From a virus: a DNA stretch of 64,000 nucleotides. Below the pieces are notes generated by a model, which worked only from the letters and a program-made list of their open reading frames with translations, was not told the origin of the DNA and ran no database searches. The stretch lies in the IMG/VR virus record IMGVR_UViG_3300049434_000014, positions 32,001 through 96,000 of that record, one strand, 5' to 3'. The position numbers and the translations under genes were made by a program. Of this stretch, positions 6,889 through 63,978 are shown piece by piece. Positions within the stretch are counted from its first letter, which is position 1; each line of letters opens with the position of its first letter.

Positions 6889-7261
6889 GTTGTCATTGTT
6901 TGACAAGTTTGCCACTCAGGTCAGTACTTATGTTTCACGGGCGTGGTTCTTTGCCGCTTGCGTGATTACTGTATTGCTTTGGGCACCGTCGTTCTATTTG
7001 TTTAGTAATGTCGATACGTGGCAACTGATTATTAATACGCTCACTACCATTGTGACTTTCCTTCTGGTAGCTCTTTTGCAGAACACGCAAAAGCGAGCGG
7101 ACGCGTCGACGCAGATCAAGCTAAACGCCATCGCTGCGGGCCTAGACGAGGTGATGGGTCAGTTCGTCTCGGATCCTCGCGTGTCGATCTCACAGGATGC
7201 TCGAGCTGCTCTGCGTGCGTCGGTAGGGCTTGAGGATCGACAGGGTTCGCAAGAGTGTTGA
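6881..7261 (+). CDS. low-affinity iron permease (Fet4-like) family membrane protein
   Basis: DTWQLIINTLTTIVTFLLVALLQNTQ.R...A.Q.KL signature. Confidence 0.8.
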   Translation: MAELSLFDKFATQVSTYVSRAWFFAACVITVLLWAPSFYLFSNVDTWQLIINTLTTIVTFLLVALLQNTQKRADASTQIKLNAIAAGLDEVMGQFVSDPRVSISQDARAALRASVGLEDRQGSQEC

Positions 7262-7277
7262 CTGGGTAGTATTATAT

Positions 7278-7454
7278 ATGCCTACTCTTATAGAGGTTCT
7301 TAAAGTTTCTGCTCAGTTTGTCTTGTGCTTAGTTGGGTTCGCTTTGGTCTTTGGGGCGGCTGGTCTCGCGCTTTCCTTTTTTCTCCAACATCTAGCTACT
7401 CAGCCTTACTACCCTGATCGTGTCCTGCATTGCATAAATGATGTGTGTAAGTAA
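7278..7454 (+). CDS. small membrane protein
   Basis: ATG 8 nt after GGGTAG; one TM segment. Confidence 0.5.
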   Translation: MPTLIEVLKVSAQFVLCLVGFALVFGAAGLALSFFLQHLATQPYYPDRVLHCINDVCK

Positions 7455-7460
7455 CTACCC

Positions 7461-7997
7461 ATAAGGGTGAACGTACGAGCTTGCATGTCGTACTTCCTGC
7501 ATGGTAGTTTACCTACATGACATCCACCGTGAACGTTCACCAGGCCGACCTTGAGGCCAGGTTCTGTCCCTCCCGCTTCCAGATGGCCACCGCTGCAGCG
7601 ATGCTGGCTGCGAATCCCGGTGCGCACTCTGTTGTCGTGCCGATCGCTCTGCCTGGGAAGGATCCGGGTTGGTGGGAAGCTGGCCAGGCCGTCGAGTACC
7701 CTCCCGGCTACTTCCTGGCCATCACGAATGACTGGGATGGTCCTGAGTCCTACGCTGCCGCGCGCAACGAGGCCGAGGCTGTCTCGGAACGGCACATGGT
7801 TGCCGTGACCGGCACGACTGCTTACGCGTCGATTCGTCCTGATGGCACGTTCGCTGTCTACGAGGGTTCGTGTGTGTCGAGTCTCCGCAAGCGGTAGGTC
7901 TGTGCTTGAGCGGCGCGAGAGCGATGGCAGCTCTCGCGTCGTTCTCGTATGTCACCTGTAAGGGTACCTATAAGGGTGAACGTACGAGCTTGCATGT
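7461..7997 (+). repeat. 28-bp exact direct repeat ATAAGGGTGAACGTACGAGCTTGCATGT (7461-7488 and 7970-7997) overlapping two promoter -35 boxes
   Basis: Identical strings, each upstream of a probably leaderless ATG (7517; 8019/8025). Confidence 0.85.
7517..7897 (+). CDS. hypothetical protein
   Basis: ATG just downstream of a -10 box; followed by a hairpin at about 7908-7944. Confidence 0.6.
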   Translation: MTSTVNVHQADLEARFCPSRFQMATAAAMLAANPGAHSVVVPIALPGKDPGWWEAGQAVEYPPGYFLAITNDWDGPESYAAARNEAEAVSERHMVAVTGTTAYASIRPDGTFAVYEGSCVSSLRKR

Positions 7998-22898: not shown

Positions 22899-22970
22899 GC
22901 GTCGGTAGCTCAGAGGAAGAGCAGCTGCCTCTTAAGCAGCGGGTCGGGATATCGTAATTCCCTCGACGCA
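22899..22970 (+). tRNA. tRNA-Lys(CTT), atypical T-loop (ATCGTAA)
   Basis: Cloverleaf GCGTCGG/TCGACGC; anticodon arm GCTGC-CTCTTAA-GCAGC. Confidence 0.85.
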
Positions 22971-22971
22971 C

Positions 22972-23094
22972 GGGAGACCTGGACATGTCCTACCCCATAC
23001 TAAACTGATCCCGTGAGATATTGGGCCGATCCATGGTTCCTCTCTACACGTTCTGATGCTTAGGGTTGATCGCACGATTGGCCCTAAGCATCAG
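22972..23094 (+). ncRNA. structured ncRNA module copy A (pseudoknot-like core, CGTG/CACG helix, long hairpin)
   Basis: GACCTGGACATGTC...TAAACTGATCCC; related to the copies at 23402 and 23557. Confidence 0.5.
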
Positions 23095-23103
23095 GAAATG
23101 CAA

Positions 23104-23179
23104 GCCTCGATAGCTCAGCCTGGACGAGAGCAGATGCCTTTTAAGCATCGGGTCGTTGGTTCAAATCCAACTCGGGGTA
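23104..23179 (+). tRNA. tRNA-Lys(TTT)
   Basis: Canonical cloverleaf; GATGC-CTTTTAA-GCATC; GTTGG-TTCAAAT-CCAAC. Confidence 0.93.
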
Positions 23180-23390
23180 CGTGAAATTATATAGAACCCC
23201 TTCTGAGGTGCAATCCGCGCAGTTACGTTTTCGCTGGAGTTCTGAGAAAGCAGCTAGAGTTATTTCCCGACATCGGGAATACTATATTCCAGTTGTAGAT
23301 TTTGTTAAACCTAATTGGTTCCCGTTGGCAACACTCAGTTTGAGTGTAGTTACGAATTGTGTAACAATTTTAGTTGCTTTGCTGATAAAA

Positions 23391-55562: not shown

Positions 55563-55948
55563 CTCGGTCAGCGGTCACTTTGAATTACGTTCGGGCTCAC
55601 GAGTTGGCAGCGCAGCGTCTGGAGACACAAGTTGACGTACTCTCGCTGCAGTGCAATGGCATGAAGCTGAAAGCTGCTCGCGGCAGTTCTATGTTCTCGG
55701 ATCCTGGGGACATGGCTGCGTATTACCTTATTGACGATTTGCGTAAGGCGTCGAAGACTTTGTTGAATTCAGCACAGGCGCATCGGGCGCGAGCTACTGC
55801 CTTCCTGAACGCTCCGTGTCCCGCTTGTCTTGCGGGCCAGCGTTCGCACTGTGCTAGTTGTGGATCGTGTGCTGTTGCAAATCGTGGTCCGTCGTGTCGG
55901 GATCTTGAGTGTGAGTTGGCGAGTTCTCGCGTGTCTGTTGATACGTGA
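55559..55948 (+). CDS. hypothetical protein, Cys-rich C-terminus
   Basis: ATGA coupling; CPAC..HC..C..C. Confidence 0.55.
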   Translation: MTRSAVTLNYVRAHELAAQRLETQVDVLSLQCNGMKLKAARGSSMFSDPGDMAAYYLIDDLRKASKTLLNSAQAHRARATAFLNAPCPACLAGQRSHCASCGSCAVANRGPSCRDLECELASSRVSVDT

Positions 55949-55961
55949 GGTATGATCGTTT

Positions 55962-56080
55962 CGACAAGTCAGTTCTTTACGCTTCGAGCCTTCCTGACAA
56001 GTCCAATCATGTCTTTTTCAGTTCGACTCGACTATTCTTGTCCATTCACCTCGCCTCGAGGCGTTTGACTTTTTCGTCCT
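55962..56080 (+). repeat. phased pentamer array 1 (3-4 units, YGACWR + (NYC-NN)n)
   Basis: Anchors at 55962, 55995, 56029 and 56066. Confidence 0.7.
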
Positions 56081-56098
56081 AAATGGGAGAATTCTGTT

Positions 56099-56302
56099 AT
56101 GGATCTACGTATTGGTGTCGCGGCTGTGGTTCTCGCTGTTGCAGCGCTTGTGTCTGGCGTCGCGTGGGGAAGTTCTGCGTCGACGTCTACGACTGTGTTG
56201 GCTTGTGGGGATACTCCTGGCTTCTGTCCTAATCCTCCGACGACGGCGCATGAATCGAACATGCGTGATGGGCAGATCGTCGGCGGGACTCACGATTTCT
56301 AG
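56099..56302 (+). CDS. small secreted protein
   Basis: Signal peptide; GGGAG RBS. Confidence 0.55.
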   Translation: MDLRIGVAAVVLAVAALVSGVAWGSSASTSTTVLACGDTPGFCPNPPTTAHESNMRDGQIVGGTHDF

Positions 56303-56931
56303 GAGTTAGTTGCTGGGCCTTCGGGTAGGACTTGACACTTGCTGTCTACCCGGAGGTGTGTTATGACTCTTAACATGGTCGGTGTTGTGGTTGTACTGGC
56401 TCTCGTATTTGCTTTAGTCGTCATTATGAAGCGACACCAGACTCAGCACTGTAATCACTTGCATCATCTGTCTAATGCTTTGGTCGGTCTGGTCGCTTTC
56501 ATCGATGAGCGCGTTCCGGGGGAGCTTCCCGAGGAGACGCGGAGTTTCGTCGCTGACTACACTGCGCAGTGGAGTACTGACGAGTATGTAGAGGAGCCGG
56601 TCGGGGATAAGAGTGTCTGATTCTGACTTGACTCCTATTTACGATCAGCTTTCGCAGGAGCATGAGACTCATACTGGAGTTTTCACTCCGGACGATCCGT
56701 TGGATACTTCTGTGCCTCTCCCAGTTGATCCTGTGGTCGCGGCGGCAGATATCGACCCTGTTGTGGGTCGCCCAAGCTCCGAGTAGCTCGTTAGTCATGC
56801 ATGGCTGGACGGGTATGACTAGTCATGGTCTTGTTTAGCACATCGATACTATCTGTGCTTTTCTGGCTCGCTGGTATGAGCGGTCGGTGTGCTGCGCGTC
56901 GTGATCACCAGTTCTATCTGAGGGAGACAGT

Positions 56932-57864
56932 ATGCGTAAACGACAAAGATTCGTAGTGGCGGGGGCGATTGTTGCCGTCGTGGGTGTGTTGGGCTCGTGT
57001 TCGACTGCTGATCCCTCACCGGGTCAGGTTGCGGCGCATTACAGTAATGGACCGTTTTCTTCGCAGGTGTTTCAGGACTGCGTCGCACCGGGGCAGCTGG
57101 CTTATCAGGGTGTTAGTGATGATCACTTCTACTACCCTGCTGGTCAGCGTTCGTTCAAGTTCAGTAATGATCCTGACTCGGATTATCCTCCGATTGAGGT
57201 GATGAGTAGCGATAGTCAGGTGTTGACGGTTAGTGGCACCATGGCTTTCACGTTGGACACTTCTTGTGCGCCTTGGGATGACAAGGATGCAAATGGCAAT
57301 GTCATCAAGCATTGGCCAGGCGGTTTGTTGCAGAGGTTCCACGAGACACTGGCCATTCAGGACAGCGCGTTTTCGACTTCTGGTGGAACTGAGCCCGGTC
57401 CTGGTTGGGATAAGTTCATTGGTAAGTACGTGAAAGATACCGCCGAGCGTGCGATCACCAATGAGGCTCTGAGGTTCGGTTGGTTTGCCTTGTCTAACGA
57501 TCCTGCGTCGCGTGCGCAGTGGGAGAAAGACGTTGTCACCAAGGTTCCTGATCTGGTGACGGCTCAGATGGGTGCTCCGTACCTGCATATTGACAACATT
57601 CTGTTGCAGAAGCCCGTACCTGGCCCTGGTTTGCTGGCTGGTCTTGCTTCGAAGCAGGAAGCTCAGTTGCGTTCGGATGCTGTCGATATTGACAAGGCTG
57701 CAGCTTTGAACTTCCCTGGTGGCATCAACGCGTACGCGGATTACCAGCAGAAGTTGGGTGTGCTTGCTCTGCAGCGTTCGATCGCTCGCGCTATTGATGA
57801 TGGCAAGGTGAAGGCTGTTCCGGTCCCTGCGGGTTCGCCCGTGATTGTCAGCCCAGGCGGGTAG
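56932..57864 (+). CDS. SPFH/band-7-like lipoprotein
   Basis: Lipobox LGSC; YPAGQR.F.F, V.S.D...L.VSG...F.L and LQKP.P motifs, recalled from actinophage SPFH-domain proteins. Confidence 0.7.
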   Translation: MRKRQRFVVAGAIVAVVGVLGSCSTADPSPGQVAAHYSNGPFSSQVFQDCVAPGQLAYQGVSDDHFYYPAGQRSFKFSNDPDSDYPPIEVMSSDSQVLTVSGTMAFTLDTSCAPWDDKDANGNVIKHWPGGLLQRFHETLAIQDSAFSTSGGTEPGPGWDKFIGKYVKDTAERAITNEALRFGWFALSNDPASRAQWEKDVVTKVPDLVTAQMGAPYLHIDNILLQKPVPGPGLLAGLASKQEAQLRSDAVDIDKAAALNFPGGINAYADYQQKLGVLALQRSIARAIDDGKVKAVPVPAGSPVIVSPGG

Positions 57865-57871
57865 GTGTCTG

Positions 57872-58207
57872 ATGGCTAAGGGTGAGATCTTCGTTTTCAC
57901 TGCGCTTGTTCTTATGCTCGCATTGGGAATGCTGGTCTACAAGTTGTGGCAATACTTCAGTAAGATGGCGTGGGAGAGGGCGCGACGTACTGCTCCGTGG
58001 TTTTCACGATCTTCTATCAATCCTGATGGATCTGTGACGGTGTTGGTTCGTCGTGAGGCGTGGGTGGGCTGGTCGGTTGAGATGGTCGGCGAGCCTGTCG
58101 AGGTCGCAACGATCAAGGTGGCGGATCTGGATCTGGGCTTGCTTCAGGAAGCTGAGGGTCGTGCCGAGATCGTGGCTAATACCTACAACCGCACCAGTTT
58201 GCCCTAG
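57872..58207 (+). CDS. membrane-anchored hypothetical protein
   Basis: N-terminal TM segment; start just after GGGTAG. Confidence 0.55.
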   Translation: MAKGEIFVFTALVLMLALGMLVYKLWQYFSKMAWERARRTAPWFSRSSINPDGSVTVLVRREAWVGWSVEMVGEPVEVATIKVADLDLGLLQEAEGRAEIVANTYNRTSLP

Positions 58208-58218
58208 CTGACACCCTG

Positions 58219-58260
58219 CGCAGGAAGCCTCAGTTCCTTCGGGAGCTGGGGCTTCCTGCG
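58219..58260 (+). terminator. hairpin terminator
   Basis: CGCAGGAAGCCTCAG...CTGGGGCTTCCTGCG followed by TTT. Confidence 0.7.
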
Positions 58261-58357
58261 TTTCTATACTTTCTTGCCTGACCTAGTTGACCTCGTAGAC
58301 CTTGCATGCTACCGTATGGGTAGTACTTGATGACGGGGATCAACCCAGGAGGTAGAC

Positions 58358-59311
58358 ATGGCAACGTCTGTACGGACCGACGAGCACCGCGAGGGTGTGC
58401 TGGTACCCGCGAACTACAGGTTTCGCGAGGTGCTGGATCTCTACGCTGGTGGACCCAAAGATGACGTGATCGCTCTGGCCAAGCAGGCAGCGGTCCCTCC
58501 GAGGTGGCTTCAGTTCGTAGAGCGTCAGCGCGCTCGGGTGAAGCAATACCAGGCTCGCGCAGTCGGCGATCGTCCTCGGTTGTCTCAGTGCAATATCTGT
58601 GGTGCGCACATTCGTTACGCGGTTGTGTGGGCATACAATCCCGAGCCGGGTGGTCACTTCGCTGGTTACATTACTACGGGTACTGACTGTGCCTCGTCCG
58701 TCAATGCTGCACTCGAGTCGGAGATTGCTTCTCAGGCTGGCGCTCTGCGTGAGTTCGTCGCTGGCATGCGTAAGCAGGCGCGGTCGGCTGCAGCGGCGCA
58801 CACGGAGCCTGCTGTGCCTGTTGAGGCGGCGTCACGGTGGTCTGCTGTGGATCGTCGTCGTCAGGCGTGGATCGCGGAGTCTAACGATCACTATCGGGTC
58901 GCGCACTTCCTGCACGCTGTGTCTGGTAACCACGCGGATCTCGGTTGCACTGGTAAATGTTTTCACTGTGACGTGACGGCTCAGTTGGTTGAGACCGGCT
59001 CGTTGTCGGAGCGTCAGGTTGAGGCTGTGCTGCGTTCTGTGCCTTCCTGGGAGGCGCATGGTCGGCTTCCTGAGCCTGCCTTCGAGATTCCTTCAGGTGA
59101 GACCACGATTACAGGCACGCTGGCTTCAGCGCGCAATGGGCACATGCTCATTAAGTGCAAGGGCTACCGTGTGTGGACGATTCCCCCGGAGGGTCTGCGG
59201 TCGGCTCAGACGGGTTCTCAGGTTCGGTTCACTGCTTATGTGGAGCCTTCCACGAAAGATCCTAAGTTTTTGATTGCTCGCGATGTTCGGGACGGAGAGG
59301 TTGTCGGTTGA
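58358..59311 (+). CDS. hypothetical protein with zinc ribbon and C-terminal OB-fold-like region
   Basis: CNICG..IRY....G.DC, G.LS.RQ..AV and G.R.TI.G....G..V.FTA.V motifs; promoter 58287. Confidence 0.65.
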   Translation: MATSVRTDEHREGVLVPANYRFREVLDLYAGGPKDDVIALAKQAAVPPRWLQFVERQRARVKQYQARAVGDRPRLSQCNICGAHIRYAVVWAYNPEPGGHFAGYITTGTDCASSVNAALESEIASQAGALREFVAGMRKQARSAAAAHTEPAVPVEAASRWSAVDRRRQAWIAESNDHYRVAHFLHAVSGNHADLGCTGKCFHCDVTAQLVETGSLSERQVEAVLRSVPSWEAHGRLPEPAFEIPSGETTITGTLASARNGHMLIKCKGYRVWTIPPEGLRSAQTGSQVRFTAYVEPSTKDPKFLIARDVRDGEVVG

Positions 59312-59460
59312 AATGGCTAGGGGTAGACGTCCCGTTCCGGAGGGCTTCGTTCGGATACTAGATCGTCGTAGCTCCGGTGCGGCGGGTGCGCACAAGGGTA
59401 GGACTGTGACGAGAAGTGCTGAGAGAAGCTCAGCTATTCGATCGAGCAGGGAGAATTAAT

Positions 59461-59793
59461 ATGTGTAAGTCGATTACTGTCGGCGAGCTTTTTGCGACCG
59501 ATAATCGGACTTTGACGGAGAAGATGGACGATCATTCGAAGCAAGATAATTTCGAGAGTGCTTTGACTGGTGTTCAGTATCAGCTTCGTCAGGCTCGGAT
59601 CGCTATGCTGGCTGCGGGAATGAAGATGCAGGATACTGATCGCCCGGAGATTGAGGTTGACGATTTCAGGTTGTACGACACTGCGGTGGAGGCAATTCAG
59701 AATCTTCAGGCTCGTATTCGTGACATTCTTGATGATTTGGATCCTAACGCTCCCATCCCGTCTGAGCGGCAGCTCCGCACGGATCAGGTCTAG
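59461..59793 (+). CDS. hypothetical protein
   Basis: GGGAG RBS. Confidence 0.55.
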   Translation: MCKSITVGELFATDNRTLTEKMDDHSKQDNFESALTGVQYQLRQARIAMLAAGMKMQDTDRPEIEVDDFRLYDTAVEAIQNLQARIRDILDDLDPNAPIPSERQLRTDQV

Positions 59794-59823
59794 TCTTCCT
59801 ACGTCGTGTTCAGAGAGGTAGTT

Positions 59824-60108
59824 ATGCATCCGAATTCAGCATTTGCTTGGGATGATACTTCTCATCCTGCTCTTGCAGCCAAGGCGCGCGAGGCTCAGTT
59901 GGAGAAATTAGATACTCTGATGTATGTGCAGAAGAAGCTGATTGAGTCTCAGCGGGCACTGCTTGATGCTTTGTCGTCTCTGGTTGATACCAAGGTTGAG
60001 TTGTCTGCTGCTAGGAAGAAAGCGGCCAGTGAGACTCAGGGTTTCTTGACGGATTTGCAGCTGGCAACGCTGGAAGCATTCGCTTTGATTCAGCAGGGAT
60101 CGGTTTAG
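59824..60108 (+). CDS. hypothetical coiled-coil protein
   Basis: GAGG RBS. Confidence 0.55.
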   Translation: MHPNSAFAWDDTSHPALAAKAREAQLEKLDTLMYVQKKLIESQRALLDALSSLVDTKVELSAARKKAASETQGFLTDLQLATLEAFALIQQGSV

Positions 60109-60196
60109 CGGGTACGACCAGTCGTCTTCGGACAGGGCATAGTAGAGCCTGAACAGACAGAATAAACTAGATATGGGGAGCACCGAAGAGTGGTTG

Positions 60197-60670
60197 TGAC
60201 TGGTCATGTCCACTCTCGGTGACTCGCTACGTTACACTGCAGATCGACTACTCAATTCTGTTCAGGCCCGTTCGATTCATTTGACAACCCGGCACAGGCC
60301 CTCTCGCATCCATGCGACAATGCGAGTCTTGTCTCCCCCTGGCCCATGCCGACTGTCCGTCTCGCCTCCGTATCCCATCCTTTCCGTTCTGTGCCGACGA
60401 GCCAGCTCGATCCGGGTCTCTCCCACCCACCGACTAGTCTCTGCGGATCCTCCCGGGTCAGGTGACTCTGCCGATCTAGTCCCAGCGCATCATCTCGTGT
60501 CCGACTATCCGTATCCGTGCTTGTCGTTTCCAATCGACCAGTCAGTCCCGGTCAGTTCGTGCCTTGTTCCGACAGATCGCTGCTGTTCGTTTCCCGTCAG
60601 TGCGACGGACCGAGACTGTTCGCCTCCAATCAGTTCGACTACTCGACACAAGTCACCCCAAGGCCGACGA
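60197..60670 (+). repeat. phased pentamer array 2 (about 13-14 units)
   Basis: YGAC anchors at 60197, 60220, 60245, 60282, 60315, 60350, 60395, 60431, 60463, 60502, 60535, 60570, 60603, 60636 and 60665; C at every 5th base within units. Confidence 0.8.
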
Positions 60671-60686
60671 ACCGTTAGGACTAGTT

Positions 60687-60908
60687 ATGGCACTGAGTGA
60701 GTCGGTGAAGAACCGTCTGCTGAACTGGAAGTTCGAGCAGGCGTGGCAGACCTTGTCTGAGGAGATGGGCGGGGATGCTTCGGAGGCTGAGGTTCAGACG
60801 GTGCGGGCGTTGGCGATCACGTTCGGGGATCCGGGTTGGTTTGAGGGTTCGATGGCAGACATCATCCGGGCTGTGTTGTGGTTTTTAGGAGTGACTGACG
60901 ATGATTAG
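60687..60908 (+). CDS. hypothetical protein
   Basis: ATG after TAGGAC motif, directly downstream of array 2. Confidence 0.55.
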   Translation: MALSESVKNRLLNWKFEQAWQTLSEEMGGDASEAEVQTVRALAITFGDPGWFEGSMADIIRAVLWFLGVTDDD

Positions 60909-61125
60909 TTTTCGACAGATCGATGAGTTTCTTACTCCTAAGGATCCGTTTTTCAAGCTTTTGATACCTGCTCTGCTTGCGGCTTATGTGTTTATGTTAA
61001 CTGTGGGTGCTGTTGTCGCTATCACTTTCTTTACTATCGGGATGGCTATCGTTATCACGTCTGCTGTGATGGGTAGCTTGTCGTTGGTGATTTTCTACGT
61101 GATCGATAAGGTAGTCACCAAATGA
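60901..61125 (+). CDS. small membrane protein
   Basis: Two TM segments; AGGAG RBS. Confidence 0.55.
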   Translation: MISFRQIDEFLTPKDPFFKLLIPALLAAYVFMLTVGAVVAITFFTIGMAIVITSAVMGSLSLVIFYVIDKVVTK

Positions 61126-61535
61126 CTAGGGTGTGGCGTGCTCATGGATTGCCTCACGGGCATGCGGATATTCCTAGGAAGATACGAACAGCTGATCATC
61201 GATTGTTTGAGCATTTTGATGGTAGTTTGTTTCGTGAGCTTTCTACGTCTCAGTGTAATTATAGGCACTGGGATGAGTTGGTGTTTCCTGTTTTTGAGGT
61301 CTCGGATGTTTCTCCAGAGGCGGTGTCTGCTTCTGCGGATGGTGTGCTCACGGGTGTGTGGATGTCTGGTCAGTTCTCGGACATCGACATGATTAACGAC
61401 ATCGCTGATTGGTTGTTGAAGACTAAGCTTCCTGTGTTGAACGTCAGTTTTGCTGCAGCGGTGGCGGATCGTATTCGTTACCTGCTAGAAAATGATGAGG
61501 AGACTCACCTGCTGCTAGGGAGAGAAGAGCTGTGA
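61122..61535 (+). CDS. hypothetical protein
   Basis: ATGA coupling. Confidence 0.55.
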   Translation: MTRVWRAHGLPHGHADIPRKIRTADHRLFEHFDGSLFRELSTSQCNYRHWDELVFPVFEVSDVSPEAVSASADGVLTGVWMSGQFSDIDMINDIADWLLKTKLPVLNVSFAAAVADRIRYLLENDEETHLLLGREEL

Positions 61536-61837
61536 GTGATCACAAGATCGTGGAGTTTCTGAATTTGTGCGTGTCGGCTGATGAGGCAACCGGGTTAGGT
61601 TCGCCGTGGGAGTTTATCTTCAAGCGACGCATCATTGTCATTCATGCCCCACGTAAAGACGATAATGAGCAGTGGGTGTGTGATGCGTGTTCGTGGATGC
61701 ATCCTGAGATACGTCAGATTGTTAATGCGTACGCACCTTGCGAGCATTTGCAGTATATGTCTATGATCTATTCTAAGCGGGCTGGGTTTGATCCGGATTG
61801 GATTCATGACGTGATCGGGTTCGCTGAGCTTCCCTAA
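61532..61837 (+). CDS. hypothetical protein (DUF6221-like)
   Basis: KRRII..H.....C..C.......PC..L..M...Y..R.GF.P.W motif. Confidence 0.6.
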   Translation: MSDHKIVEFLNLCVSADEATGLGSPWEFIFKRRIIVIHAPRKDDNEQWVCDACSWMHPEIRQIVNAYAPCEHLQYMSMIYSKRAGFDPDWIHDVIGFAELP

Positions 61838-61857
61838 TACTCCGGGTTTTCCGGATA

Positions 61858-62355
61858 TGACTACACTACTCCGATCCTTTCATGTCGTTGGCGAATCGTT
61901 CCCGTCCCGACTATTCGCCGCATGTCCCTTCGTGTCTTGCCAAGTCGACTATTCGTTTCGATCCCGGCCATTTCGTTTTGACTATTCGCATCGGATCCAG
62001 CTCCTATCGATTCGACTGATCTTGTCGACTACGCAAGTCAGTTCCGTTCTTTGCATTGCGACTTGTCGAGCCTGTCCGTGTCCGCGCGTATCGACTACCC
62101 GATCCAGTTCCGTCCTTTCCCGCTCTTTCCGACTACGCTCGTCTCATCCGGGCATGTCATCTCGACTACTCGATTCTTTCTCGTCGCTGCGGCTCTGTTC
62201 GACTACCCGGTTCGATACGGGACATCCCTGTCCGTTCTGACTACCCGTCTCCGTTCGCTTCTAGCCCAGTCCGTCTCGACAACCCATGTCGCGGCACTGC
62301 TCTTCTTTCCGTGACGACAGGCCAGTTCCAGTCTGTTCGTCTCTGTACGACATCA
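61858..62355 (+). repeat. phased pentamer array 3 (about 13 units)
   Basis: Anchors at 61858, 61908, 61946, 61979, 62013, 62026, 62059, 62092, 62130, 62163, 62200, 62238, 62277, 62315 and 62348; spacings mostly 33 or 38. Confidence 0.85.
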
Positions 62356-62375
62356 CACATCGGGTAGGAGTTGGG

Positions 62376-62579
62376 ATGTATACGTTTTCTGAGGGTGTGT
62401 TGATTACGGATGACATGATTGAGCGTGACGATTCGATCGAGCCTCGCGCGGGTCAGCCTTGCTGGTGTCCTGATTCGTTTATCGAGGCGTGTTTTTACGT
62501 GCGGTATTGCCCGCGCCACGGGTCGGTTCCTGATCAGGATCTCTGGAATTTCAGGGTTGCTCCATACGGGATCTCATAG
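62376..62579 (+). CDS. hypothetical protein
   Basis: ATG 8 nt after GGGTAG. Confidence 0.5.
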   Translation: MYTFSEGVLITDDMIERDDSIEPRAGQPCWCPDSFIEACFYVRYCPRHGSVPDQDLWNFRVAPYGIS

Positions 62580-63464: not shown

Positions 63465-63535
63465 GGCTTCATAGACTAATGGCAGGTCACTAGCCTCTCA
63501 AGCTAGGAGTACGGGTTCGACCCCCGTTGGAGCTA
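63465..63535 (+). tRNA. tRNA-Glu(CTC)
   Basis: GGCTTCA/TGGAGCT acceptor; CTAGC-CTCTCAA-GCTAG; ACGGG-TTCGACC-CCCGT. Confidence 0.85.
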
Positions 63536-63547
63536 CGTTTGTATTAA

Positions 63548-63617
63548 CGTTCCGTGGTGTAGGGATAGCACGCCGGTCACGGGACCGGTAGTCCACGTTT
63601 AACTCGTGGCGGAACGA
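63548..63617 (+). tRNA. tRNA-like gene with non-canonical anticodon loop (identity undetermined)
   Basis: CGTTCCG/CGGAACG acceptor; CCGGT-CACGGG-ACCGG (6-nt loop); CCACG-TTTAACT-CGTGG. Confidence 0.6.
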
Positions 63618-63664
63618 CGCACGGCCTAGGATCGCCTCTGCTTCGGGCATGCGCCTAGGTCTCT

Positions 63665-63738
63665 CGGGATGTAGGGAAGCCAGGTATCCCACCTGTTTTG
63701 GGTACAGGAAGCCGCAGGTTCGAATCCTGCCGTCCCGA
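63665..63738 (+). tRNA. tRNA-Pro(TGG)
   Basis: CGGGATG/CGTCCCG; CCTGT-TTTGGGT-ACAGG; GCAGG-TTCGAAT-CCTGC. Confidence 0.9.
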
Positions 63739-63740
63739 CT

Positions 63741-63816
63741 GGATGGATGTAGCTCAATGATAGAGCCCTTGGATTAACGTCTAAGGAGACGTGGGTTTGA
63801 TTCCCGCCACCATCCT
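63741..63816 (+). tRNA. tRNA-like gene with bulged acceptor stem and 8-nt anticodon loop (identity undetermined)
   Basis: TAGCTCAATGATAGAGC D-arm; CTTGG-ATTAACGT-CTAAG; GTGGG-TTTGATT-CCCGC. Confidence 0.6.
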
Positions 63817-63820
63817 TCAT

Positions 63821-63894
63821 GGTGAATGTAGCTCAAATGGCAGAGCGCCTGATTGTGGGTCAGGTCGTTGCGGGTTCGATTCCCGTCGTTCACC
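63821..63894 (+). tRNA. tRNA-His(GTG)
   Basis: G-1; GTGAATG/CGTTCAC; CCTGA-TTGTGGG-TCAGG. Confidence 0.92.
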
Positions 63895-63978
63895 CCGAGA
63901 GGGACGGAGTCCAAAGCACATATGGTACCTGTTGCTAGGACTTAAACGACAATGTTATGTGTGTCCGTCCTTCTCCTA

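What the first reader, a model, noticed from the sequence alone, without database searches (positions are those of the whole stretch)
55951..62355. Candidate RNA-guide system: three dispersed arrays of YGAC-anchored units built from phased fixed-triplet/variable-dinucleotide pentamers
Seen: about 30 units in three intergenic arrays with the same grammar, YGACWR followed by (NYC-NN)x5-6. Examples: CGACTA-CTC aa TTC tg TTC ag GCC cg TTC ga TTC at (60245); CGACTA-CCC ga TCC ag TTC cg TCC tt TCC cg CTC tt (62092); CGACTA-TTC tt GTC ca TTC ac CTC gc CTC ga GGC gt (56029). Unit lengths cluster at 33 and 38 (one at 13), that is 8+5n, so units gain or lose whole pentamers. The 5-nt period is incompatible with codon structure, the C/T-rich composition is opposite to the G/T-rich coding strand, and the NN positions differ in the units examined. 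This is not CRISPR (no long constant repeat) and not a simple satellite. Inference: a precursor processed at the GAC anchors into small RNAs, in which a protein filament binds the repeated triplet and the NN dinucleotides spell a gapped target code. From memory and unverified, phage VIPR-type arrays of GGY/NN pentamers paired with a RAMP/Cas7-like protein follow similar logic. Here the triplet is NYC (GRN on the minus strand), so this would be a divergent or new class. No RAMP-like (Gly-loop) protein is recognisable in this window.
Basis: partly seen in the sequence, partly recalled or inferred. Interest (0 to 1): 0.92.

Follow-up and report, generated by a model that had tools for sequence, protein, structure and literature searches.

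The report
Non-canonical VIPR guide-RNA arrays in phage
The three odd repeat arrays are real and are best explained as guide-RNA arrays of a divergent, greatly expanded VIPR system (a phage RNA-guided silencing system first described in 2026), whose Cas7-like protein gene lies 10 kb beyond the window.

Summary
The three + strand arrays (window 55962-56065, 60245-60664, 61858-62347) have strong 5-nt periodicity (z 3.8-7.0). Their grammar is GAC + (NN-x-Y-C) x5-8, with C at 96% of fifth positions, and units are mostly 33 or 38 nt.

They are part of seven arrays, about 6.5 kb and roughly 140-220 units, in a complete 153-kb phage genome. One of these arrays is 4.3 kb long.

One exists outside it: a single 252-aa gene at genome 106228-106986. 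Its predicted fold matches Cas7/Csm3 RAMPs (E 5e-7), and its family aligns to the phage SUSP1 Vipr family (hhalign 76.5%, E 2e-5).

In 49 of 51 viral contigs that carry a homologue, an array of the same grammar sits beside the gene on the gene's strand. It usually lies between a conserved 187-aa gene and the RAMP gene.

So this is a VIPR-family system, a kind published in 2026, but a non-canonical one:
- the fixed triplet is NYC, not GGY;
- units are short, have no tail and are punctuated by GAC;
- the accessory gene is different;
- the guide repertoire is very large and dispersed.

Transcription, processing and targets are not shown, and target searches were inconclusive. The scan had noted the RAMP gene and the other arrays of this genome before.

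The parts
55962..56065 (+). Array 1: four units (33, 29, 5 and 37 nt) between the gene ending at 55948 and the gene starting at 56099
   Evidence: Unit parse; lag-5 autocorrelation z 3.9; periodicity scan
60181..60221 (+). Hairpin (12-13-bp stem, 16-nt loop) about 25 nt upstream of array 2. A similar long-loop hairpin follows the RAMP gene just before its downstream array (genome 106990-107050). Its role is unknown; it may be a terminator or a processing or stability element.
   Evidence: Read directly from the sequence; the hairpin after the RAMP gene is conserved in a relative whose protein is 92% identical
60245..60664 (+). Array 2: 13 GAC-anchored units, mostly 33-39 nt. It fills the gap between the gene ending at 60108 and the gene starting at 60687.
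   Evidence: (z 3.8 at lag 5, 4.6 at lag 10, 4.2 at lag 33)
60676..60681 (+). TAGGAC, a -10-like element placed 5 nt before the ATG at 60687. This is the promoter-like element of the next gene and lies directly after array 2.
   Evidence: Sequence; the genome-wide GGTAGGA-type motif occurs 60 times forward and 4 times reverse
61858..62347 (+). Array 3: 15 units (33 nt x5, 38 nt x3, and one each of 13, 34, 35, 37, 39 and 50, plus one cut by a 3-nt split). It fills the gap between the gene ending at 61837 and the gene starting at 62376. It is preceded by a short hairpin (CTCCGGGT...CCGGATA) that also precedes the 4.3-kb array.
   Evidence: (z 7.0 at lag 5, 4.6 at lag 33, 4.7 at lag 38). No significant RNA structure on either strand (z -0.46 and -0.59). 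No Rfam family.
62363..62369 (+). GGTAGGA promoter-like motif, 6 nt before the ATG at 62376, directly after array 3
   Evidence: genome position 94363; sequence

Best explanation
The arrays are genes for many short guide RNAs (vrRNA-like) of a non-canonical VIPR system carried by a 153-kb actinobacterial-type phage.

Proposed mechanism:
- The + strand, which is also the strand of all neighbouring genes, is transcribed. This happens mostly as 3' extensions of operons. For the 4.3-kb array it starts from its own promoter-like motif.
- The single Vipr-like RAMP (252 aa, genome 106228-106986) polymerises on the RNA, one protomer per pentamer. It holds the x-Y-C triplet, mainly the invariant C in the pocket that holds the pyrimidine of GGY in canonical Vipr, and exposes the NN dinucleotides.
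- The in-phase GAC triplet with its semi-fixed TA/AA, followed by a +3 phase jump, marks the start of each unit of 5-8 protomers. It is the likely nucleation or cleavage point.
- The loaded filaments then bind matching DNA of competing mobile elements or of the host and silence it, as shown for SUSP1 VIPR.

Shown here: the array grammar, the RAMP fold, the relation to Vipr, the family-wide gene-array linkage, and the orientation relative to genes.

Inferred: transcription, processing at GAC, filament formation, the pairing code, the targets and the silencing.
For: 1. Effector.
- P0001 modelled with 25 homologues (pLDDT 74.6, pTM 0.71) matches type VII Cas7 and Csm3 chains. Foldseek gives E 4.7e-7 to 1e-5, probability 1.00, TM 0.45-0.58.
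- It also matches stand-alone viral RAMPs, E 1e-13 to 4e-8.
- Profile-profile alignment of its family (A4) against the SUSP1 Vipr family (A3) gives probability 76.5%, E 2.2e-5 over 142 columns. These include helix 1 and the G-loop. Pairwise BLASTP gives E 0.003.
- Only one such gene exists in the genome.

2. G-loop residues fit the changed motif.
- SUSP1 has GVG-DWR, where D177 reads G1, W178 stacks on G2 and R179 holds Y3 (paper).
- This family has GIG-ASR, with A, S and R invariant or nearly so.
- The two G-reading residues are lost and the pyrimidine-holding Arg is kept. This matches a motif in which only the third position (C) is fixed.

3. Linkage.
- 49 of 51 IMG/VR loci with a homologue (26-62% identity) have a C-periodic array on the gene's strand beside the gene.
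- CGAC spacings peak at 38, 33, 43 and 28 across 61 arrays.
- The same grammar follows the homologue in Microcystis phage Mae-JY09 and in a Nocardiopsis prophage.

4. Module. A conserved 187-aa gene is followed by the array and then the RAMP gene in about 40 loci. The arrays begin at that gene's stop codon and end 7-50 nt before the RAMP start codon. This argues for co-transcription on the + strand.

5. Precedent. In SUSP1 the GGYNN repeats lie on the vipr strand.

6. Promoter. A GGTAGGA promoter-like motif (60 forward, 4 reverse in the genome) at 145258 is followed by no ORF, only by the 4.3-kb array.

7. Guide-like evolution.
- All guides are unique.
- Whole units are gained or lost between relatives whose protein is 92% identical.
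- Adjacent units are more alike than distant ones: 0.34 against 0.26 identity at NN positions, and 7% against 0.5% of pairs at 0.7 or above.
- No guides are shared with the related 146-kb phage beyond chance.

8. The RNA is unstructured on either strand and matches no Rfam family. This fits a protein-coated guide.
Against: - No expression or processing data.
- Sequence homology to bona fide Vipr is modest: hhalign 76.5%, and only 0.4% when SUSP1 Vipr is used as a single sequence.
- The defining GGY motif, the 9-16 repeats and the structured 3' tail of canonical vrRNAs are absent.
- With only 5-8 NN pairs (10-16 informative bases), a unit would be poorly specific under the published 1-nt-skip rule.
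- No enrichment of matches over shuffled guides was found under that rule. This holds in the phage's own genome and in the related phage G001.
- Two 18-base canonical-rule scans of 2.9 million viral contigs gave only chance-level hits. The best one has its skip bases at codon position 1.
- The conserved neighbour gene has no detectable similarity to vap1 or to any family.
- In this phage most arrays lie 12-45 kb from the RAMP gene, so their use by it is inferred from shared grammar only.
Confidence: 0.75

Rival explanations
1. The system is the same, but the functional RNA is the complementary strand. Its pentamers read G-R-N-N-N and each unit ends in a short GUAGUCG-like 3' handle. That is closer to the canonical order of repeats followed by a 3' tail, and to the 'NNNNG/NNNGG' variants listed in the VIPR paper.
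For: - On the - strand the invariant base is G, followed by a purine. In high-GC relatives it reads GG, which resembles GGY.
- The VIPR paper lists NNNGG, YNNNG and NNNNG variants.
- Two loci (L051, L053) carry arrays in both orientations around the gene, so orientation relative to vipr is not absolute.
Against: - In about 47 loci the array is wedged between the stop codon of one + strand gene and the start codon of the next. This leaves no room for an antisense promoter.
- Canonical repeats are on the vipr strand.
- The G1- and G2-reading G-loop residues are replaced while the Y3-holding Arg is kept.
- In the divergent clade the gene strand reads NAC/NN. This matches the GAC/NN and CAC/NN motifs that the Evo-PIN preprint found in its reoriented sequences; it does not say what they were oriented to.
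- 60 of 64 promoter-like motifs in the genome point in the + direction.
Confidence: 0.12
2. The arrays are transcribed and bound by the RAMP but are not guides. They could act as sponges or decoys, for example soaking up a rival's Vipr. They could also be scaffolds that store or regulate the protein, or leaders that autoregulate the RAMP operon.
For: - Units are very short for specific targeting.
- No targets were found.
- Decoy strategies against VIPR are documented: satellite-borne solo vrRNAs redirect the silencing machinery to host decoy sites (10.64898/2026.10.15.759431).
- Arrays often sit in the leader of the RAMP gene.
Against: - The NN positions are near-uniform and unique in every unit while the scaffold is conserved. 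A sponge needs only the scaffold.
- Repertoires differ completely between related phages, as expected for specificity determinants under diversifying selection.
Confidence: 0.07
3. The repeats act as DNA. They would be phased binding sites on double- or single-stranded DNA for a phage protein involved in replication, packaging, partition or nucleoid organisation. Alternatively they are C-rich, G-poor Rho-loading (rut-like) tracts that end operons.
For: - Many heads are palindromic (CGAC-WW-GTCG), which is typical of dimer sites.
- The largest array lies between the late genes and the genome end and early region.
- Arrays sit at operon ends just before promoters.
- YC-rich, G-poor RNA resembles rut sites. 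This rests on established knowledge of Rho, not on a test here.
Against: - A DNA-site or terminator role does not explain the near-obligate linkage to a Cas7-like RNA-binding protein across Actinomycetota, Chloroflexota and cyanophage contexts.
- It does not explain the strict strand asymmetry (34:0).
- It does not explain the 5-nt protomer-like period with free NN positions.
- It does not explain unit-wise turnover.
Confidence: 0.05
4. The arrays encode low-complexity Pro/Ser/Leu-rich proteins. ORFs of 100-368 aa do run through them.
For: Mechanical ORFs overlap the arrays, for example 60206-60700 and 61857-62240 in the window and a 368-aa ORF in the large array.
Against: - A 5-nt period cannot be a codon period.
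- Unit lengths of 28, 33, 38 and 43 nt shift the frame.
- Several overlapping frames are open at once.
- Relatives differ by whole-unit indels.
Confidence: 0.01

Closest known systems
Type II VIPR of Escherichia phage SUSP1 (Vipr + Vap1 + GGYNN vrRNAs; bioRxiv 10.64898/2026.04.26.720920, .720927, 2026.10.15.759431)
   Same: - Phage-encoded.
- One small stand-alone RAMP with helix 1 and a G-loop, alignable to this protein.
- One small accessory gene.
- 5-nt tandem repeats of fixed triplet plus free dinucleotide, on the vipr strand and beside the gene.
- No other cas genes.
   Different: - The fixed triplet is x-Y-C, not GGY, and the G-loop reads ASR instead of DWR.
- There are 5-8 repeats per unit instead of 9-16.
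- There is no promoter, terminator or pseudoknot tail per RNA. Units abut head to tail and are separated by an in-phase GAC.
- The protein is 252 aa against 195 aa.
- The neighbour gene is unrelated to vap1.
- There are about 140-220 units in seven dispersed arrays, against four vrRNAs.
- The 1-nt-skip code was not supported here.
Non-canonical VIPR arrays (GAC/NN, CAC/NN, WGT/NN, TGH/NN) found with a genomic language model (bioRxiv 10.64898/2026.10.21.760802)
   Same: - 5-nt period.
- Fixed triplets other than GGY.
- A Vipr-like fold encoded nearby.
- Distant homologues of this protein (28% identity, loci L058-L062) carry NAC/NN arrays with CGAC heads on the gene strand. These probably belong to those clusters.
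   Different: - That paper describes runs of about 10 repeats and lists no NYC or YYC triplet in the text available.
- It reports no GAC punctuation at 28, 33, 38 and 43 nt, no multi-kb arrays and no arrays far from the gene.
- I could not see its figure S10, so overlap cannot be excluded.
'Staggered vrRNA arrays' and the NNNGG / YNNNG / NNNNG variants of VIPR types I-VII (figs S17-S18 of 10.64898/2026.04.26.720920)
   Same: - Head-to-tail vrRNAs in which the end of one marks the start of the next.
- Degenerate pentamers with only one or two fixed bases.
   Different: - Only the figure legends are available.
- The listed variants end in G, whereas here the fixed base on the gene strand is C.
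- Whether this protein family (which has NCBI members in Streptomyces, Nocardiopsis and Actinomadura) is among the 667 typed systems could not be checked. No supplements are held.
Class 1 CRISPR Cas7 backbone filaments (Csm3, type VII Cas7) on crRNA
   Same: - Best structural matches of the protein.
- One protomer per fixed RNA step, with periodically flipped bases.
- A short conserved handle at the start of each guide (about 8 nt in crRNAs; here GAC plus WA).
   Different: - No repeat-spacer array and no cas1, cas2, cas5, cas6, cas10 or large subunit.
- The step is 5 nt, not 6.
- Guides are not separated by long repeats.
- New units seem to arise by local duplication and drift, not by spacer acquisition.
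TRAP (trp RNA-binding attenuation protein) binding to (G/U)AG triplets spaced by 2-3 nt. This is a functional analogy from my own knowledge.
   Same: An oligomeric protein reads a fixed triplet repeated with about a 5-nt period on unstructured RNA.
   Different: - TRAP is a closed 11-mer ring with a regulatory role.
- Its spacers carry no information.
- There is no RAMP fold and no such gene here.

Membership tests
VIPR system | Stand-alone RAMP protein (RRM core, G-loop, thumb) without other cas genes | tested here: met
   The AF2 model matches Cas7/Csm3 chains at E 4.7e-7 and viral stand-alone RAMPs. A C-terminal Gly-rich loop is invariant in the family. There is a single copy in the genome. 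None of the 15 neighbouring products scanned had a Cas family hit.
VIPR system | Protein homologous to experimentally characterised Vipr (SUSP1) | tested here: inconclusive
   Family-to-family hhalign gives probability 76.5%, E 2.2e-5 over 142 columns, with helix 1 and the G-loop aligned. BLASTP gives E 0.003. With a single-sequence template the probability is only 0.4%. No PDB sequence hit.
VIPR system | Tandem 5-nt repeats (fixed triplet plus variable NN) next to the vipr gene, on its strand | tested here: met
   49 of 51 related loci. In this genome, arrays lie about 1 kb upstream and 70 nt downstream of the gene. The SUSP1 orientation was checked.
VIPR system | GGY consensus of the fixed triplet | tested here: not met
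   The triplet is K-Y-C here (C 96%, T 58%), Y-Y-C in high-GC relatives and N-A-C in a distant clade. The G-reading loop residues D and W are replaced by A and S.
VIPR system | Each vrRNA has 9-16 repeats followed by a conserved structured 3' tail | tested here: not met
   There are 5-8 pentamers per unit and units abut. No significant folding. SUSP1 units with tails are shown for comparison.
VIPR system | Adjacent accessory (vap) gene | tested here: inconclusive
   A conserved 187-aa gene lies directly upstream of the array and vipr in about 40 loci. It has no similarity to vap1, to Pfam or PHROGs families, or to Atlas clusters.
VIPR system | Mostly carried by phages and proviruses | tested here: met
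   The record is a complete 153-kb virus. Relatives lie in IMG/VR contigs, in prophage contexts in Nocardiopsis, and in a cyanophage isolate.
VIPR system | vrRNAs are expressed and co-purify with Vipr | not testable with these tools
VIPR system | Targets match the NN pairs under a 1-nt-skip rule | tested here: inconclusive
   No excess over shuffled guides in the phage's own genome or in the related phage G001. Two 18-base scans of the viral contigs gave chance-level hits. Power is low because guides are short and the host is unknown.
CRISPR-Cas | Long constant repeats alternating with spacers, plus adaptation genes | tested here: not met
   No constant repeat longer than the 4-9-nt head. No Cas family other than the RAMP fold was seen among the neighbours scanned.

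The most novel reading that the evidence does not exclude
This lineage is a distinct VIPR type. Guides are made as long tail-less polycistrons of 6-7-protomer mini-guides, delimited by an in-phase GAC triplet, and this allows repertoires of more than 100 guides per phage.

It may also read DNA with a different code. One guide (genome 146738) matches 18 of 18 positions under a '3 paired, 3 skipped' rule. The match covers the -35 to -10 region of a promoter in the closest large relative (IMGVR_UViG_3300049324_000002). The orthologous promoter in the phage itself matches at only 11 of 18 positions. This site is the only perfect match among 2.9 million viral contigs.
Probability: 0.25. Interest if true: 0.85.

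Novelty: new variant of a known kind. Interest (0 to 1): 0.62.

Why it matters
VIPR was described only in 2026, and all experiments so far use GGYNN systems with a handful of guides.

This phage devotes about 4% of its genome to more than 100 different short guides. It uses a different fixed triplet, with matching changes in the protein's RNA-reading loop. If the reading is confirmed, it would show three things:
- how the triplet specificity of Vipr proteins can be retuned;
- that guide arrays can be compacted to about 33 nt per guide without individual promoters or tails;
- that a lytic-type large phage can carry a CRISPR-sized repertoire that appears to grow by duplication and drift rather than by acquisition machinery.

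The family is widespread in actinobacterial phages and prophages. It also occurs in an isolated Microcystis phage, which offers a culturable model.

Tried and rejected
1. DNA similarity of the region to 50,697 phage records, in near and distant modes: no match. The phage is far from cultured phages; the best clamp-loader match is 34% identical.

2. Pfam, PHROGs and PDB sequence searches of the RAMP gave nothing significant. A single-sequence structure prediction was unusable, with pLDDT 38.7.

3. Self-targeting. Twelve gapped models (NN, N2N3 or NNN, with skips 0-3) of 99 guides against the phage's own genome gave no excess over shuffles.

4. Cross-targeting between this phage and the related 146-kb phage G001.
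- All NN models were null.
- One model (NNx + 3 skipped) gave z -4.3 with 54 clean guides. It fell to -2.8 with 105 guides, and to -1.9 and -1.6 in the reverse direction.
- Best sites are not enriched in non-coding DNA.
- Two further 21-base scans under that rule found nothing.
- I treat this as a lead only; the rough post-hoc p is about 0.01 before counting the promoter location.

5. The NNx triplets are not in-frame codons, since stop codons are not depleted.

6. No guides are shared between the two phages beyond chance.

7. A sigma-70 and terminator consensus scan was uninformative.

9. The supplements of the VIPR paper are not held. I therefore could not check whether this family is already typed.

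Full report
**What is there**

The window is bases 32001-96000 of a complete 153,455-bp virus record with 127-bp terminal repeats. Roughly 215 of 266 mechanical ORFs lie on the + strand.

Array 1 (55962-56065) has 4 units, array 2 (60245-60664) has 13, and array 3 (61858-62347) has 15. Lengths are dominated by 33 and 38 nt.

Lag-5 autocorrelation exceeds shuffles by z 3.9, 3.8 and 7.0, with further peaks at lags 10, 33 and 38. Two coding controls show only 3-nt periodicity. The tracts are C-rich and G-poor, the opposite of the coding strand.

**Genome-wide picture**

A periodicity scan of the whole genome finds the same signal at four more places: 104924-105197, 107073-107251, 145419-149604 (a 4.3-kb non-coding tract) and 150290-150940.

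Together the seven arrays cover about 6.5 kb. They give 220 YGAC intervals, 141 of them 28 nt or longer.

The logo is CGAC-[T/A]-A-[G/C]-T-C, followed by C at every fifth base (96% falling to 62%), usually preceded by T. Lengths prefer 5n+3 (59 units against 35, 22, 13 and 4 for the other classes).

Re-parsing shows that the C of GAC and the C before it are both in phase with their neighbours. A unit is therefore GAC + n x (NN-x-Y-C) with n = 5-8. This amounts to a run of regular pentamers interrupted by one extra triplet. In clean units positions 1-2 are near-uniform, position 3 is G/T (73%), position 4 is T (58%) and position 5 is C (96%).

A strict pattern is found 34 times forward and never reverse, and the reversed control gives none. 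All parsed guides are unique.

**What the arrays are not**

No Rfam family matches the arrays. Neither strand folds better than shuffles (z -0.46 and -0.59).

The ORFs that run through the arrays cannot be genes. The period is 5 nt, unit lengths shift the frame, and a close relative differs by whole units.

**The effector**

I tested it.

It has no Pfam, PHROG or PDB sequence match. It does have more than 900 homologues in metagenomes and in Streptomyces, Nocardiopsis and Actinomadura genomes, all unnamed.

A model built with 25 homologues (pLDDT 74.6) matches type VII Cas7 and Csm3 at Foldseek E 4.7e-7 to 1e-5, and matches stand-alone viral RAMPs at E 1e-13 to 4e-8.

I fetched phage SUSP1 and located its vipr-vap1 pair between two non-coding gaps. 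I confirmed that the GGYNN repeats lie on the vipr strand.

The protein aligns with SUSP1 Vipr over helix 1 and the G-loop (BLASTP E 0.003). A family-to-family hhalign gives 76.5% probability and E 2.2e-5.

According to the structure paper, D177 reads G1, W178 stacks on G2 and R179 holds Y3 in the SUSP1 loop. Here the loop reads A-S-R, with all three residues conserved. The residues for the two G's are gone and the one for the pyrimidine is kept. This fits a motif whose only fixed base is the third-position C.

The genome has only this one copy.

**Linkage and orientation**

Of 51 IMG/VR loci that encode a homologue (26-62% identity), 49 have a C-periodic array on the gene's strand right beside it. 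The array is upstream in the closer clade and downstream in the distant clades.

CGAC spacings across 61 arrays peak at 38, 33, 43 and 28. In high-GC relatives the triplet becomes Y-Y-C. In a 28%-identity clade it is N-A-C, still with CGAC heads.

The same 33-nt units follow the homologue in the isolated Microcystis phage Mae-JY09 and precede it in a Nocardiopsis prophage.

A 187-aa gene of unknown family is conserved directly upstream in about 40 loci. The arrays start at its stop codon and end 7-50 nt before the RAMP start codon.

This packing, the SUSP1 precedent and the loop residues together favour the + (C-periodic) strand as the RNA. I put this at about 85%.

In this phage a GGTAGGA promoter-like motif (60 forward, 4 reverse) at 145258 is followed only by the 4.3-kb array. 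Arrays 2 and 3 end directly at the -10-like element of the next gene.

Genome hits place the family mainly in Actinomycetota, with outliers in Chloroflexota and Dormibacteria.

**How the arrays evolve**

A relative whose protein is 92% identical shares the downstream array but differs by whole-unit gains and losses.

Adjacent units are more similar at NN positions than distant ones, which suggests growth by local duplication and drift.

The related 146-kb phage G001 has its own 4-kb array. It shares no guides with this phage beyond chance.

**Targets**

Under the published NN + 1-skip rule and eleven other gapped models, the guides match the phage's own genome no better than shuffled guides. 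The same holds for cross-matches with G001, with one exception.

The exception is an 'NNx paired, 3 skipped' model. It gave z -4.3, which weakened to -2.8 with more guides. It also produced one perfect 18/18 match, for the guide at 146738.

That site spans the -35 to -10 region of a consensus-like promoter in a 70-nt intergenic region of G001. The downstream gene has an orthologue in this phage (41% identity), and the orthologue's own promoter matches at only 11 of 18 positions. The site is the only perfect match in 2.9 million viral contigs.

Against this, best sites are not enriched in non-coding DNA, and two more scans under that rule found nothing. Two 18-base scans under the canonical rule gave chance-level hits.

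The code and the targets therefore remain open. The short guides and the unknown host limit statistical power.

**Comparison with the literature**

VIPR systems (Vipr RAMP, Vap, GGY/NN vrRNAs, 1-nt-skip DNA recognition, silencing of satellites and prophages) were reported in three 2026 preprints.

A fourth preprint reports 21 clusters with non-canonical triplets, including GAC/NN and CAC/NN, next to Vipr-like folds.

The discovery paper also mentions staggered head-to-tail arrays and degenerate pentamers. Its figures and tables are not available here.

The finding is therefore a member of a known kind of system. The following features are not described in the text I could read:
- the NYC triplet with matching loop changes;
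- GAC-punctuated units of 28, 33, 38 and 43 nt without tails;
- a different accessory gene;
- a repertoire of more than 100 guides spread over seven sites, most of them far from the effector gene.

**Verdict**

I class it as a new variant of a known kind. Confidence that these are VIPR-family guide arrays is 0.75. Expression, processing, the pairing code and the targets are untested.

Noticed in passing
genome-wide; in the window e.g. 56324, 62363, 62800, 63160: The GGTAGGA(C/G)T motif occurs 60 times on the + strand and 4 times on the - strand. It usually lies 5-7 nt before a start codon, like a -10-only promoter for leaderless mRNAs. Arrays 2 and 3 end directly at such an element.
   Followed up: partly
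genome 146738 (outside the window) against IMGVR_UViG_3300049324_000002 (L080:2317-2349): One guide matches 18 of 18 positions under a '3 paired, 3 skipped' rule. The match lies across a TTGACG-17-TATGCT promoter of a rival relative. The phage's own orthologous promoter (window about 345-385) matches at only 11 of 18. This is the only perfect hit in the viral collection.
   Followed up: partly
genome 104349-104912 (L009:8349-8912): A 187-aa helical, Arg-rich protein with no known family. It is conserved directly upstream of the array and RAMP gene in about 40 related loci and is a candidate new VIPR accessory protein.
   Followed up: partly
window 61842-61857 and genome 145377-145392: The same short hairpin (CTCCGGGT...CCGGATA) precedes array 3 and the 4.3-kb array. 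It may be a shared start or processing signal.
   Followed up: no
genome 147955-148025 (L010:3955-4025): Four tandem copies of a 14-nt A/T-rich unit interrupt the large array.
   Followed up: no
L069 (Microcystis phage Mae-JY09, PP395641.1, 37713-38976): An isolated cyanophage carries a 31%-identical RAMP followed by about a dozen CGAC-headed 33-nt units. It is the only cultured phage found with this family and is a possible experimental model.
   Followed up: partly
L053:5530-5870 and 7188-7583; L051: Two related loci have arrays in both orientations flanking the RAMP gene, each co-oriented with a neighbouring gene.
   Followed up: partly
window 63465-63896 and 22899-23180; L009:499-1804: tRNA clusters (Glu, Pro, His, Lys and others), one with an odd anticodon loop according to ARAGORN (63548-63618).
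   Followed up: no
genome 107327-108448 (L009:11327-12448): A clamp-loader-like AAA+ gene (DNA_pol3_delta2, E 8e-33) directly follows the RAMP gene and its array. It does so here and in the two closest large phages, but not in prophage relatives.
   Followed up: partly
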